A DNA stretch of 64,000 nucleotides from the human T2T-CHM13v2.0 reference genome, Homo sapiens, in the NCBI RefSeq assembly GCF_009914755.1, contig NC_060927.1; one strand, 5' to 3'. This document shows positions 43,716 to 52,680 of the stretch, in pieces. The first letter of the stretch is position 1. Every line of letters begins with the position of its first letter. The position numbers were made by a program, and so were the translations under genes. A model generated the notes under the pieces. It did not search any database. It saw only the letters and a list, made by a program, of their open reading frames with translations, and was not told where the DNA came from.

Positions 43716-46187
43716 CTTAAGGAGATTTTGGGCTGAGACAATGGGGTTTTCTAGATATAGAATCATGTCATCTGCAAACAGGGACAATTTGACTTCCTCT
43801 TTTCCTAATTGAATACCCCTTATTTCCTTCTCCTGCCTAATTGCCCTGGCCAGAACTTCCAACACTATGTTGAATAGGAGGCGTGAGAGAGGGCATCCCT
43901 GTCTTGTGCCAGTTTTCAAAGGGAATGCTTCCAGCTTTTGCCCATTCAGTATGACATTGGCTGTGGGTTTGTCATAGATAGCTCTTATTATTTTGAGATA
44001 CGTCCCATCAATACCTAATTTATTGAGAGTTTTTAGCATGAAGGTTGTTGAATTTTGTCAAAGGCCTTTTCTGCATCTATTGAGATAATCATGTGGTTTT
44101 TGTCTTTGGTTCTGTTTATATGCTGGATTACATTTATTGATTTGTGTATATTGCATTCCAAGGATGAAGCCCACTTGACCATGGTGGATAAGCTTTTTGA
44201 TGTGCTGCTGGATTCGGTTTGCCAGTATTTTATTGAGGATTTTTGCATCAATGTTCATCAAAATCTCCTTAAGCTGATAAGCAACTTCAGCAAACTCTCA
44301 GGATAAAAATCAATGTACAAAAATCACAAGCATTCTTATACACCAATAACGGACAAACAGAGAGCCAAATCATGAGTGAACTCCCGTTCACAATTGCTTC
44401 AAAGAGAATAAAATACCTAGGAATCCAACGTACAAGGGATGTGAAGGACCTCTTCAAGGAGAACTACAAACCACTGCTCAAGGAAATAAAAGAGGATACA
44501 AACAAATGGAAGAACATTCCATGCTCATGGATAGGAAGAATCAATATCATGAAAATGGCCATACTGCCCAAGGTAATTTATAGATTCAATGCCATCCCCA
44601 TCAAGCTACCAATGACTTTCTTCACAGAATTGGAAAAAATTACTTTAACGTTCCTATGGAACCAAAAAAGAGCCCGCATCACCAAGTCATTCCTAAGCCA
44701 AAAGAACAAAGCCGGAGGCATCATGCTACCTGACTTCAAACTATACTACAAGGCTACAGTAACCAAAACAGCATGGTACTGGTACCAAAACAGAGATACA
44801 GATCAATGGAACAGAACAGAGCCCTCAGAAATAACGCCGCATGTCTACAACTATCTGATCTTTGACAAATCTGAGAAAAACAAGCAATGGGGAAAGGATT
44901 CCCTATTTAATAAATGGTGGTGGGAAAACTGGCTAGCCATATGTAGAAAGCTGAAACTGGATCCCTTCCTTACACCTTATACAAAAACTAATTCAAGATG
45001 GATTAAAGACTTAAACGTTAGACCTAAAACCATAAAAACCCTAGAAGAAAACCTAGGCATTACCATTCAGGACATAGGCATGAGCAAGGACTTCATGTCT
45101 AAAACACCAAAAGCAATGGCAACAAAAGCCAAAATTGACAAATGGGATCTAATTAAACTAAAGAGCTTCTGCACAGCAAAAGAAACTACCATCAGAGTGA
45201 ACAGGCAACCTACAAAATGGGAGAAAATTTTTGTGACCTACTCATCTGACAAAGGGCTAATATCCAGAATCTACAATGAACTCAAACCAATTTACAAGAA
45301 AAAAACAAACAACCGCATCAAAAAGTGGGCAAAGGATATGAACGGACACTTCTCAAAAGAAGACATTTATGCAGCCAAAAGACACATGAAAAAATGCTCA
45401 TCATCACTGGCCATCAGAGAAATGCAAATCAAAACCACAATGAGATACCATCTCACACCAGTTAGAATGGCAATCATTAAAAAGTCAGGAAACAACAGGT
45501 GCTGGAGAGGATGTGGAGAAATAGGAACACTTTGACACTGTTGGTGGGACTGTAAACTAGTTCAACCATTGTGGAAGTCAGTGTGGCGATTCCTCAGGGA
45601 TCTAGAACTAGAAATACCATTTGACCCAGCCATCCCATTACTGGGTATATACCCAAAGGACTATAAATCATGCTGCTATAAAGACACATGCACACGTATG
45701 TTTATTGCGGCACTATTCACAATAGCAAAGACTTGGGACCAACCCAAATGTCCAACAATGATAGAATGGATTAAGAAAATGTGGCACATATACACCATGG
45801 GATACTATGCAGCCATAAAAAAGGATGAGTTCATGTCCTTTGTAGGGACATGGATGAAATTGGAAATCATCATTCTCAGTAAACTATCACAAGGACAAAA
45901 AACCAAACACCACATGTTCTCACTCATGGATGGGAATTGTACAATGAGAACACATGGACACAGGAAGGGGAACATCACACTCTGGGGAGTGTTGTGGGGT
46001 GGGGGGGAGGGGGGAGGGATAGCATTAGGAGATATACCTAATGCTAAATGACGAGTTAATGGGTGCAGCTCACCAGCATGGCACATGTATACATATGTAA
46101 CTAACCTGCACATTGTGCGCATGTACCCTAAAACTTAAAGTATAATAATAAAAAAAAGTATAATAATAATAAAAAATAAATAAACCA
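43716..46187 (+). mobile_element. 5'-inverted (twin-primed) L1PA3-like element A: inverted part 43716-44261, sense part 44259-46187
   Basis: 387-aa ORF2 fragment at 44372-45535; antisense RT piece (FADD); poly(A); TSD AAAACTCCAGGAC at 43701-43713 and 46188-46200. Confidence 0.96.
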
Positions 46188-46520
46188 AAAACTCCAGGAC
46201 CTCACTCCACTCAGTTACATCTATCCTGAACTTTTCAATAAAGAAAGTCAATACATTTGGAAGGGAGTGGAGGATAGAGGCTTGAGCCAATTTGACTTGG
46301 GTATCTGACATTTGCAACCAGAAGTATACTTTCCAATTCAGGACAGAACTATATTCATGTGGGAAAAGTAAAGTAAACATATACAACTATAACACAGATG
46401 CCCAACTATCACAAGACACTTTTAAGCAGACAATGGACCAAATGGTAAACTTTAAGCACAGATTAGCATTTGAGAAGAAGAACGGGTGGTGAATGAATGT
46501 ACAACACAGAGACAGGGACG

Positions 46521-50285: not shown

Positions 50286-52680
50286 TTTTTCTTTTTTTTT
50301 TTTTTTTTTACTTTTTTTTTAATTATTATACTTTAAGTTTTAGTGTACATGTGCACAATGTGCAGGTTATTTACATATGTATACATGTGCCATGCTGGTG
50401 CACTGCACCCATTAACTCATCATTTAGCATTAGGTATATCTCCTAATGCTATCCCTCCCCTCTCCCCCCACCCCACAACACTCCCCAGAGTGTGATGTTC
50501 CCCTTCCTGTGTCCATATGTTCTCATTGTTCAATTCCCATCTATGAGTGAGAACATGCGGTGTTTGGTTTTTTGTCCTTGTGATAGTTTGCTGAGAAGAA
50601 TGATGATTTCCAATTTCATCCATGTCCCTACAAAGGACATGAACTCATCCTTTTTTATGGCTGCATAGTATCCCATGGTGTATATGTGCCACACTTTCTT
50701 AATCCAGTCTATCATTGTTGGACATTTGGGTTGGTCCCAAGTCTTTGCTATTGTGAATAGTGCCGCAATAAACATACGTGTGCATGTGTCTTTATAGCAG
50801 CATGATTTATAGTCCTTTGGGTATATACCCAGTAATGGGATGGCTGGGTCAAATGGTATTTCTAGTTCTAGATCCCTGAGGAATCGCCACACTGACTTCC
50901 ACAATGGTTGAACTAGTTTACAGTCCCACCAACAGTGTCAAAGTGTTCCTATTTCTCCACATCCTCTCCAGCACCTGTTGTTTCCTGACTTTTGAATGAT
51001 CACCATTCTAACTGGCGTGAGATGGTATCTCATTGTGGTTTTGATTTGCATTTCTCTGATGGCCAGTGATGATGAGCATTTTTTCGTGTGTCTTTTGGCT
51101 GCATAAATGTCTTCTTTTGAGAAGTGTCTGTTCATATACTTTGCCCACTTTTTGATGCGGTTGTTTTTTTCTTGTAAATTGGTTTGAGTTCATTGTAGAT
51201 TCTGGATATTAGCCCTTTGTCAGATGAGTAGGTTACAAAAATTTTCTCCCATTTTGTAGGTTGCCTGTTCACTCTGATGGTAGTTTCTTTTGCTGTGCAG
51301 AAGCTCTTTAGTTTAATTAGATCCCATTTGTCAATTTTGGCTTTTGTTGCCATTGCTTTTGGTGTTTTAGACATGAAGTCCTTGCCCATGCCTATGTCCT
51401 GAATGGTAATGCCTAGGTTTTCTTCTAGGGTTTTTATGGTTTTAGGTCTAACATTTAAGTCTTTAATCCATCTTGAATTAATTTTTGTAGAAGGTGTAAG
51501 GAAACCACCATGATCAAGTGGGCTTCATCCCTGGGATGCAAGGCTGGTTCAATATATGCGAATCAATAAATGTAATCCAGCATATAAACAGAACCAAAGA
51601 CAAAAACCACATGATTATCTCAATAGATGCAGAAAAGGCCTTTGGCAAAATTCAACAACCCTTCTTGCTAAAAACTCTCAATAAATTAGGTATTGATGGG
51701 ACATATCTCAAAATAATAAGAGCTATCTATGACAAACCCACAGCCAATATCATACTGAATGGGCAAAAACTGGAAGTATTCCCTTTGAAAACTGGCACAA
51801 GACAGGGATGCCCTCTCTCACCACTCCTATTCAACGTAGTGTTGGAAGTTCTGGCCAGGGCAATTAGGCAGGAGAAGGAAATAAAGGGTATTCAATTAGG
51901 AAAAGAGGAAGTCAAATTGTCCCTGTTTGCAGACGACATGATAGTATATCTAGAAAACCCCATTGTCTCAGCCAAAATCTCCTTAAGATGATAAGCAACT
52001 TCAGCAAAGTCTCAGGATACAAAATCAATGTACAAAAATCACAAGCATTCTTATACACCAAAAACAGACAGAGAGCCAAATCATGAGTGAACTCCCATTC
52101 ACAATTGCTTCAAAGAGAATCAAATACTTAGGAATCCAACTTACAAGGGACGTGAAGGACCTCTTCAAGGAGAACTACAAACCACTGCTCAATGAAATAA
52201 AAGAAGATACAAACAAATGGAAGAACATTCCATGCTCATGGGTAGGAAGAATCAATATCGTGAAAGTGGCCATACTACCCAAGGTAATTTATAGATTCAA
52301 CGCCATCCCCATCAAGCTACCAATGACTTTCTTCACAGAACTGGAAAAAACTACTTTAACGTTCATGTGGAACCAAAAAAGAGCCCACATCACCAAGTCA
52401 ATCCTAAGCTGGAAGAACAAAGCTGGAGGCCTCACGCTACCTGACTTCAAACTATACTACAAGGCTACAGTAACCAAAACAGCATGGTACTGGTACCAAA
52501 ACAGAGATATAGATCAATGCAACAGAACAGAGCCCTCAGAAATAATGCCACATATCTACAACTATCTGATCTTTGACAAACCTGAGAAAAACAAGAAACA
52601 GGGAAAGGATTCCCTATTTAATAAATGGTGCTGGGAAAACTGGCTAGCCATATGTAGAAAGCTGAAACTGGATCCCTTCC
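50286..52680 (-). mobile_element. 5'-inverted (twin-primed) L1PA3-like element B: 3' part antisense 50286-51503, inverted part sense 51505-52680
   Basis: T tract at 50286; ORF2 fragments on both strands; 18-bp TSD TCCAAAACTGTATTTCTT at 50268-50285 and 52678-52695. Confidence 0.96.

What the first reader, a model, noticed from the sequence alone, without database searches (positions are those of the whole stretch)
43716..52680. Two independent twin-primed L1PA3 insertions share ~9 private substitutions, including the same ORF2 stop codon: ectopic gene conversion and a candidate invertible 4-kb segment
Seen in sequence: elements A and B have different intact TSDs and different inversion junctions, so they are separate insertions. 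Their 3' arms are inverted relative to each other across a ~4.06-kb spacer (46204-50267). Both carry the same departures from the L1PA consensus as I recall it, at paired positions 45234/51235, 45288/51181, 45315/51158, 45534/50939, 45737/50736, 45801/50672, 45823/50650, 45930/50540 and 45989/50481. These give the shared peptides KIFVTY, LKPIY, KTWDQ and TMGYY. The 45534/50939 change turns TTA into TGA inside the C-terminal cysteine motif ([15 protein letters not shown]). Established knowledge: this motif is needed for retrotransposition and L1 works mainly in cis, so a common source element is unlikely to have carried the stop. Inference: the variants spread after insertion by non-allelic gene conversion, or by repeated inversion toggling, between the inverted arms. 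The spacer would then be a candidate recurrent or polymorphic inversion. The unswapped TSDs show this haplotype is in the ancestral orientation. One shared variant (ttaacgttc at ~44645 and ~52356) lies in the directly oriented overlap, so exchange may not be limited to the inverted arms.
Basis: partly seen in the sequence, partly recalled or inferred. Interest (0 to 1): 0.8.

Follow-up and report, generated by a model that had tools for sequence, protein, structure and literature searches.

The report
Gene conversion between two neighbouring L1 insertions
Two separately inserted L1 retrotransposon fragments lying 4 kb apart in opposite orientation have copied about 0.9 kb of sequence from one to the other, a clean local example of a known process; whether the DNA between them can flip remains untested.

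Summary
The anatomy is as described. Element A (43717-46187) and element B (50285-52680) each have their own target-site duplication (TSD) and a different inversion junction. Their 3' arms are inverted across about 4.1 kb.

All nine listed paired positions are shared, but not all are private. The TGA occurs at 275 places in the genome. 45989G is also in a third L1, called E here, 137 kb away. 45823G and 45930A are only moderately rare. The tenth variant lies at 44649, not 44645.

Gene conversion between the inverted arms is well supported:
- A and B differ at 11 of 859 sites in A 45017-45879, against 72 of 1474 elsewhere (0 of 300 permutations reach this).
- None of 990 control pairs of other L1PA copies shows such a tract/flank ratio.
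- A and B are sisters only in the tract tree.
- Two two-variant haplotypes from the tract occur only in A and B in the whole assembly.

A shared source element and uneven mutation rates do not fit. Reciprocal inversion toggling alone cannot homogenise the arms. No inverted allele was found in the literature I could read, and the TSDs here are unswapped.

Two further points were unexpected. Element E and a neighbouring L1 pair also share private short patches. TGA-bearing L1 copies are strongly clustered by region, which I cannot explain.

The parts
43701..43716 (+). Left TSD of element A (AAAACTCCAGGACTTC)
   Evidence: 15/16 match to 46188-46203 (family D10)
43717..44258 (-). Element A, inverted 5' segment (L1 ORF2 antisense on the + strand)
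   Evidence: Aligns in reverse to the contiguous older L1 at 10802-11357. ORF2 frame reads on the minus strand. A 15-nt complementary overlap joins 43716-43730 and 44259-44273 (I14).
44259..46187 (+). Element A, 3' arm (ORF2 C-terminal part, 3' UTR, poly-A 46137-46187)
45017..45879 (+). Converted segment in A. It is patchy: long identical runs at 45084-45234, 45236-45334, 45480-45765 and 45780-45879, with an island of 7 A/B differences at 45335-45479.
   Evidence: 11/859 differences inside against 72/1474 outside, LR 23.9, 0/300 permutations; difference list
45533..45535 (+). TGA stop in the ORF2 cysteine motif of A (G at 45534)
46188..46203 (+). Right TSD of element A
   Evidence: D10
46204..50267 (.). 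Unique spacer between the two elements. This is the candidate invertible segment, together with the parts of the arms inside any crossover.
   Evidence: No L1 match from A in the spacer; only small simple repeats
50268..50285 (-). TSD of element B next to its poly-A (seen as poly-T on the + strand)
   Evidence: Identical 16-18 nt at 52678-52695 (D5, 53, 54)
50285..51503 (-). Element B, 3' arm (inverted relative to A 44966-46187)
   Evidence: 96.5% to A 44966-46184 in reverse; 37 mismatches in 1225 columns
50591..51452 (-). Converted segment in B (counterpart of A 45017-45879), with the TGA at 50938-50940
   Evidence: Coordinates from the alignment; TGA word at 50929-50950
51505..52680 (+). Element B, inverted 5' segment (L1 sense on the + strand). 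51973-52680 is a direct repeat of A 44259-44969; 51505-51986 is inverted relative to A 43717-44187.
   Evidence: 94.5% and 96.0% identity without gaps
52678..52695 (-). TSD of element B at its 5' end

Best explanation
A and B are two independent, endonuclease-type, twin-primed insertions of L1PA3-like elements. The subfamily label was not checked against a consensus library. After both had inserted and picked up private mutations, one or a few non-reciprocal exchanges between their inverted 3' arms copied roughly 0.25-0.9 kb of sequence from one copy into the other. This would be intrachromosomal or sister-chromatid non-allelic gene conversion.

The donor's private mutations came across with the tract: 45234T, 45288C, 45315G, 45737G, 45801G, 45823G and the TGA. 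The tract is patchy. B keeps its own bases at 45457-45479, which implies either several events or uneven heteroduplex repair.

Since then each copy has gained a few new differences. Within the tract there are 7 shared rare variants, against 4 A-only and 3 B-only substitutions (plus two indel differences between A and B). This places the exchange at very roughly a third to a half of the elements' age. The direction of transfer is unresolved.

Shown: independent origin, a low-divergence tract, and haplotypes unique in the genome. Inferred: the recombination mechanism and the timing.
For: 1. Independent origin. The TSDs differ, the junctions differ, and the target sites resemble TT/AAAA.

2. Divergence pattern.
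- 14/910 differences in A 44966-45879
- 38/703 in the direct overlap, 19/470 in the 5' inverted overlap, 12/250 in the distal 3' UTR
- Fisher test, tract against rest: p=1.6e-5
- Best segment 45017-45879: 11/859 against 72/1474, reached by 0 of 300 permutations

3. Control for uneven mutation rate. Across 990 pairs of 45 other L1PA copies, the tract/flank divergence ratio has median 1.02 and minimum 0.44. For A-B it is 0.28, and 0 of 990 pairs are as low.

4. Trees. A and B are sisters in the tract (SH-aLRT 97, end branches 0.006 and 0.011). They are not sisters in the direct overlap (end branches 0.025 and 0.033).

5. Shared rare variants per region.
- Tract (863 sites): 7, counting the three below. 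One search, at 5% or less of the 88-copy reference, lists 4 (45234T, 45288C, 45315G, 45801G).
- 45534G and 45737G are over-represented in that reference by ascertainment and are rare by genome-wide count. 45823G is 4/60 in the 60-copy sample.
- Direct overlap (707 sites): 1
- 5' overlap (248 sites): 0

6. Genome-wide uniqueness. 45737G+45801G occurs only in A and B. 45288C+45315G occurs only in A and B. None of 30 TGA copies from elsewhere carries the other tract variants.

7. Subfamily markers. In the flanks A and B differ at several such sites: 44482, 44885, 45016, 45472 and 45880.
Against: - No ape orthologues or other human haplotypes could be examined, so the pre-conversion state was never seen.
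- The tract is not clean. There are 7 differences within 45335-45479. Beyond 45880 a shared rare variant (45989G) sits among 5 differences.
- The reference sample of 88 copies was picked by patterns, not at random: 30 by TGA, 30 by TTA from the start of C1, and 28 by 45737G.
- The genome search states that its counts for repeats are lower bounds, so 'only A and B' means none other was found. Single-variant words did return 28-275 places on all chromosomes.
- One rare variant (44649C) is shared outside the inverted homology.
- TGA and 45989G are also in element E, so not every shared variant need have come through the A-B exchange.
Confidence: 0.87

Rival explanations
1. Common source. A and B were both copied from one source element, or a very small lineage, that already carried the shared variants including the stop. 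No DNA-level exchange occurred.
For: - One rare variant (44649C) is shared outside the inverted arms.
- TGA exists on many other copies, some with short branches, so a TGA-bearing source is not excluded.
Against: - This predicts uniform A-B divergence. The tract is 3.5-fold lower, and 0 of 990 control pairs show that.
- A-only and B-only rare variants are themselves depleted in the tract: 4 and 3 in 863 sites, against 11 and 17 in 707 sites.
- A and B differ at subfamily markers in the flanks.
- No third copy in the genome carries the two-variant haplotypes.
Confidence: 0.05
2. Inversion toggling. Repeated NAHR crossovers between the inverted arms, flipping the 4-kb spacer back and forth, spread the variants.
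For: - 1.2-kb inverted arms at about 97% identity, with a 286-nt identical run.
- Passages read in Balachandran 2022 (PMC9675761) describe L1-mediated inversions of similar size: n=8, median 5,487 bp, median L1 similarity 97.1%.
Against: - Reciprocal crossovers exchange segments between arms. They do not reduce divergence (inference).
- The TSDs are unswapped in this haplotype.
- No inversion is listed at this place in what I could read.
Confidence: 0.04
3. Chance, or locally low mutation. The interval evolves slowly, or the shared bases are parallel mutations.
For: - 45234 is a CpG site.
- The single variants recur elsewhere: 96, 242 and 275 places.
Against: - Other L1PA pairs show equal divergence in tract and flank: means 5.4% and 5.3%.
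- Joint occurrence of the variants is unique to A and B.
Confidence: 0.02

Closest known systems
Non-allelic (ectopic) gene conversion between nearby transposable-element copies. Alu examples are reviewed in Fawcett & Innan 2019 (PMC6598467, passages read), citing Aleshin & Zhi 2010 for raised rates within 10 kb.
   Same: - Independent insertions a few kb apart
- A tract of reduced divergence
- Mutations carried from one copy to the other
- Disagreement between the tract tree and the flank tree
   Different: - The partners here are L1 fragments in inverted orientation, not Alus.
- The tract is long (up to about 0.86 kb) and patchy.
- It carries an ORF2 stop codon.
- One partner also shares short private patches with an L1 137 kb away.
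Inverted-repeat-flanked polymorphic inversions, and arm-to-arm conversion in palindromes.
- Aguado 2014 (PMC3961182, Table 1 passage read) lists HsInv0341 with L1PA3 repeats.
- Balachandran 2022 (PMC9675761, passages read).
- Hallast 2013 on a Y palindrome (title only, seen in a reference list).
   Same: - Inverted L1 arms of about 97% identity around a few-kb spacer
- Conversion keeps the arms similar and so keeps NAHR possible
   Different: - No inverted allele has been seen here.
- The arms are only 1.2 kb long.
- The TSDs show the standard orientation in this haplotype.
Twin-primed L1 insertion
   Same: - One TSD pair around an inverted 5' segment and a direct 3' segment
- The two segments are contiguous in L1 coordinates, with a small overlap at the junction
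- Poly-A tail
   Different: Nothing differs. Both elements are ordinary examples.

Membership tests
Twin-primed L1 insertion | A single pair of target-site duplications flanks the whole element | tested here: met
   A: 15/16 nt. B: 16-18 nt identical.
Twin-primed L1 insertion | The 5' segment is inverted, the 3' segment carries poly-A, and the two are adjacent in L1 coordinates with a small overlap or gap at the junction | tested here: met
   Mapped against the contiguous older L1 at 8947-11357. Overlap is 15 nt in A and about 4 nt in B.
Non-allelic gene conversion | The paralogues are of independent origin | tested here: met
   Different TSDs and junctions. Different subfamily-marker states in the flanks.
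Non-allelic gene conversion | A bounded tract has significantly lower divergence than the flanks, and rate variation does not explain it | tested here: met
   11/859 against 72/1474, 0/300 permutations. 0/990 control pairs reach the ratio.
Non-allelic gene conversion | Derived variants in the tract are shared by the pair and absent from other family members | tested here: met
   The TGA and 45989G are exceptions.
Non-allelic gene conversion | Phylogenetic incongruence between tract and flank | tested here: met
Non-allelic gene conversion | An orthologue in an outgroup species shows the unconverted state | not testable with these tools
   No ape genomes are on hand. The genome search says the assembly has no relatives here.
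NAHR-mediated (polymorphic or recurrent) inversion | Inverted repeats with a long identical stretch flank the segment | tested here: met
   1.2-kb arms with 37 mismatches. The longest identical run is 286 nt.
NAHR-mediated (polymorphic or recurrent) inversion | The alternative orientation is observed in some haplotype or species (swapped TSDs) | not testable with these tools
   This haplotype has matching TSDs, and no other haplotype could be examined. No entry found in Aguado 2014 or Giner-Delgado 2019 (main texts) or in the Balachandran 2022 supplements. Porubsky 2022 and Ebert 2021 are not held.

The most novel reading that the evidence does not exclude
The A-B tract may be one visible edge of a regional web of short-patch ectopic exchange among dispersed L1PA copies.

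Evidence for such a web near the window:
- An L1 137 kb away (E) shares two patches with A or A/B that are unique in the genome.
- Another neighbouring pair, 37 kb apart, shares a private 3-variant patch.

The same kind of exchange, perhaps helped by GC-biased repair, may have spread the weak-to-strong T>G change that creates the ORF2 stop. That variant sits on L1 copies of different subfamily backgrounds within megabase-scale domains. If so, old L1 copies evolve in a partly concerted way by region.
Probability: 0.3. Interest if true: 0.7.

Novelty: new member of a known kind. Interest (0 to 1): 0.45.

Why it matters
This is a well-delimited natural example of interlocus gene conversion between two dead L1 fragments. 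The flanks serve as internal controls and the genome-wide uniqueness tests add an external one.

- Shared 'private' mutations in neighbouring repeats can mislead subfamily or source-element inference and dating.
- Conversion keeps a 286-nt perfect match between inverted arms. That maintains a substrate for a small inversion in the extended span of CNTN3, within its longer transcript models.
- The wider observations would bear on how much ectopic exchange shapes old repeats, if they hold genome-wide. These are the patches shared over 37-137 kb and the regional clustering of one stop-codon variant.

Tried and rejected
- **External L1 copies.** A scan of viral contigs for the stop-codon word found nothing. 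The window's own assembly was used instead.
- **Donor direction.**
  - Flank markers hinted at transfer from B to A around 45232-45381, but several of those markers look like CpG-decay sites.
  - Element E shares TGA and 45989G with both copies, which hints the other way.
  - I left this unresolved.
- **Is A an offspring or lineage-mate of E?** Rejected. E carries 45894A, 45916A, 46027G, 46047G and 46059G on both sides of the shared 45989G, and A lacks them.
- **Is TGA one retrotransposing lineage?** Not as a whole.
  - The 30 sampled TGA copies lie on several backgrounds.
  - Their flanks are unrelated.
  - About a third do share younger-type markers.
- **Conversion tracts around the TGA in neighbouring TGA copies.** No linked variant was found near the site. 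Similarity next to the site is no clearer for near pairs than for far pairs.
- **Do the eight local C3 copies share more rare alleles than other sets?**
  - 19 shared, against a mean of 10.6 in sets drawn from all loci (9/300 reach it).
  - Against sets of dispersed copies the mean is 18.4 (142/300 reach it).
  - This is not significant, because subfamily structure confounds it.
- **CpG filter.** The CpG filter flagged nothing, so that doubleton test is unfiltered.
- **Literature on an inversion here.** Nothing was found. The supplement of the ape T2T paper could not be read.
- **Germline mutational processes.** The preprint (10.1101/2020.01.10.893024, passages) had nothing on this L1 site.
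Full report
**Anatomy**

The region holds two truncated L1 elements.

Element A (43717-46187):
- A 16-nt TSD, AAAACTCCAGGAC[T/C]TC, at 43701-43716 and 46188-46203.
- An antisense 5' segment at 43717-44258.
- A sense 3' arm at 44259-46187, ending in poly-A.
- The two segments overlap by 15 nt in L1 coordinates.

Element B lies on the minus strand:
- A TSD, (TC)CAAAACTGTATTTCTT, at 50268-50285 and 52678-52695.
- A 3' arm at 50285-51503.
- An inverted 5' segment at 51505-52680, overlapping the 3' arm by about 4 nt.

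A third, older and uninterrupted L1 in the window (8947-11357, 87% identical to A) gave the L1 coordinate frame. The junctions of A and B lie 707 nt apart in that frame. These are therefore two separate insertions of the twin-priming type; that name and mechanism are recalled, not read here.

On the + strand there are three homology blocks:
- A 44966-46187 is inverted relative to B 51503-50285.
- A 44259-44969 is a direct repeat of B 51973-52680.
- A 43717-44187 is inverted relative to B 51986-51505.

All nine paired positions check out as A=B. Both copies read [31 protein letters not shown] and TMGYY. B also has a 4-nt deletion that shifts the frame.

No consensus library was available, so I used the window's own assembly, which genome search can scan by pattern. 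I compared against 60 other L1PA copies: 30 fetched by the TGA word and 30 by the TTA word. The counts are:

| Variant | Seen in other copies |
|---|---|
| 45288C | 0/49 |
| 45315G | 0/50 |
| 45737G | 0/60 |
| 45801G | 0/60 |
| 45989G | 0/58 |
| 45234T (CpG site) | 1/47 |
| 45823G | 4/60 |
| 45930A | 6/58 |

The base at 44645 is the majority base. The rare shared base in that word is 44649C (0/37).

Genome-wide, the exact words occur as follows:

| Word | Places |
|---|---|
| TGA | 275 |
| TTA | 15,000 (a round number, perhaps a cap) |
| C or A at the same site | 240 together |
| 45737G | 96 |
| 45801G | 242 |
| 45989G | 28 |
| 44649C | 28 |

So each single variant recurs elsewhere, and the stop codon is not private.

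**Evidence for conversion**

Divergence between A and B is uneven:
- 14/910 in A 44966-45879
- 38/703 in the direct overlap
- 19/470 in the 5' inverted overlap
- 12/250 in the distal 3' UTR

Tract against rest gives Fisher p=1.6e-5. A change-point scan picks 45017-45879, with 11/859 inside and 72/1474 outside. The LR is 23.9, and 0 of 300 permutations reach it. The longest identical run is 286 nt.

This is not a slow-evolving interval. In 990 pairs of 45 other copies that cover both regions, mean divergence is 5.4% in the tract interval and 5.3% in the flank interval. The ratio has median 1.02 and minimum 0.44, and A-B is at 0.28. Four of those pairs have tract divergence as low as A-B. These are probably the near-identical group L053-L059 seen, and their flanks are equally alike.

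Maximum-likelihood trees place A and B as sisters in the tract, with SH-aLRT 97 and short end branches. In the direct overlap they are not sisters.

Rare variants follow the same pattern.
- Shared rare variants: 7 in the tract (863 sites), 1 in the direct overlap (707 sites) and 0 in the 5' overlap (248 sites).
  - Four of the seven pass the 5% cut in the 88-copy reference.
  - 45534G and 45737G are inflated there by how the reference was picked.
  - 45823G is 4/60.
- A-only rare variants drop from 11 (direct overlap) to 4 (tract); B-only from 17 to 3.

The joint haplotypes 45737G+45801G and 45288C+45315G occur only in A and B in the assembly. None of the 30 TGA copies from elsewhere has the other tract variants.

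**Interpretation**

A shared source predicts uniform divergence and other copies with the haplotype. Neither is seen. Reciprocal crossovers, as in inversion toggling, would swap segments rather than homogenise them.

Non-reciprocal exchange between the inverted arms fits all the results. The tract is patchy: seven differences lie in 45335-45479, including common polymorphisms at 45471 and 45472 where B keeps its own bases. This points to more than one event or to uneven heteroduplex repair.

The 7 shared, 4 A-only and 3 B-only rare variants put the exchange very roughly at a third to a half of the elements' age. With the recalled age of about 12 Myr for L1PA3 (not checked here), that is a few million years ago. 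The direction of transfer is unresolved.

**Inversion**

The arms are 1.2 kb long with 37 mismatches and a 286-nt identical run. They resemble the L1 pairs at published L1-mediated inversions: median size 5,487 bp and median similarity 97.1% (PMC9675761, passages).

This haplotype has matching TSDs. I found no entry for this place in any of these:
- Aguado 2014, main text
- Giner-Delgado 2019, main text
- the Balachandran 2022 supplements, searched by coordinate prefixes estimated from the gene's offset
- a full-text search for CNTN3 with inversion terms

The larger call sets were not held or not readable. The idea stays open.

**Beyond the finding**

*A third L1 shares patches with A and B.* One of the 26 other 45989G copies is an L1 at C3:74,492,400-74,494,600, called E here. 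It lies 137 kb left of A, outside the window, and also carries the TGA.
- TGA+45989G together occur only in A, B and E.
- A and E alone in the genome share 44870T+44920G, inside a 144-nt identical run.
- E lacks the other tract variants. It differs from A at younger-type markers on both sides of 45989, so the shared stretches are short patches, not common descent.

*A neighbouring pair does the same.* Two other neighbouring TGA copies (L092 and L093) are 37 kb apart. They are 94.9% identical overall and have unrelated flanks. They share a 35-nt word holding three variants absent or rare among the sampled copies, and that word occurs nowhere else in the assembly.

*The TGA copies cluster by region.* TGA copies are more numerous than the T>C copies at the same site and about seven times the T>A copies. 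They are also strongly clustered:

| Set (C1-C3) | Median nearest-neighbour distance | Share with a neighbour within 1 Mb |
|---|---|---|
| TGA copies | 135 kb | 82% |
| T>C / T>A copies at the same site | 1.9 Mb | 38% |
| 45737G copies | 5.2 Mb | 17% |
| 45801G copies | 3.9 Mb | 20% |

A uniform spread would give 29% for the TGA set.

Cluster members have unrelated flanks and differ in L1 background. Among the 30 sampled TGA copies, rare doubleton variants fall on pairs less than 100 kb apart in 7 of 38 cases, where 4.1% is expected.

Against a simple conversion reading of the TGA clusters:
- No linked variant sits near the TGA.
- There is no clear local rise in similarity.
- The test on the eight local copies is not significant against dispersed controls.

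I record the clustering as unexplained.

**Limits**

- The 88 comparison copies were ascertained by pattern, not at random.
- The genome search warns that repeat counts are lower bounds.
- The L1PA3 label, the role of the cysteine motif, cis-preference and the subfamily ages are recalled knowledge.
- No other primate or human haplotype was available.

Noticed in passing
window 45534 / 50939; genome-wide in G000: The T>G change that makes the ORF2 stop occurs at 275 places. That exceeds T>C plus T>A at the same site (240 together). The copies are strongly clustered by region: median nearest-neighbour distance is 135 kb, against 1.9-5.2 Mb for three control variants. Seven further copies lie within C3:74.20-75.13 Mb. 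Cluster members have unrelated flanks and different L1 backgrounds. Cause unknown.
   Followed up: partly
L091 = G000:C3:74492400-74494600 (137 kb left of A, outside the window): A third L1 (E) carries TGA+45989G, a pair found only in A, B and E. It also carries 44870T+44920G, a pair found only in A and E, inside a 144-nt run identical to A. It differs from A at markers on both sides of these patches.
   Followed up: yes
L092 (C3:74198450-74200500) and L093 (C3:74235720-74237770): Two independent L1 copies lie 37 kb apart, with unrelated flanks and 94.9% identity overall. They share a 35-nt word with three variants absent or rare among the sampled copies, and the word occurs nowhere else in the assembly. 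It sits inside an 86-nt identical run.
   Followed up: yes
L018-L026, G000:C2:209.14-209.62 Mb: In this TGA cluster, 6 of 8 copies also share 44761C and 5 of 8 share 45289C (A coordinates). At most 5% of the other sampled copies carry these. The sharing holds although the copies differ at subfamily markers.
   Followed up: partly
L025/L026 (C2:209613788 + and 209616697 -); C2:222633747 + and 222635391 -: These are other inverted pairs of TGA-bearing L1 copies, only 1.6-2.9 kb apart. L025 and L026 have very different backgrounds (128 differences in 1870 sites).
   Followed up: partly
window 44259-44969 and 51973-52680: A and B also form a 707-nt direct repeat (94.5% identical), 7.7 kb apart. 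It could mediate deletion or duplication of the interval. The rare variant 44649C is shared there, but it is flanked by A/B differences within 9 and 5 nt.
   Followed up: partly
window 8947-11357 and 16599-17217: An older uninterrupted L1 on the minus strand is 87% identical to A and has TTA at the stop site. A separate L1 3'-end fragment is 91% identical to A. Both were used only as outgroups.
   Followed up: no
G000 hits of the 45737G word: Three pairs of 45737G copies lie 23-32 kb apart (C3:84.83/84.86, C3:89.145/89.168, C14:62.30/62.33 Mb). About 0.1 such pair is expected by my own estimate, which was not computed in a call. I did not check whether they are duplications or exchanges.
   Followed up: no
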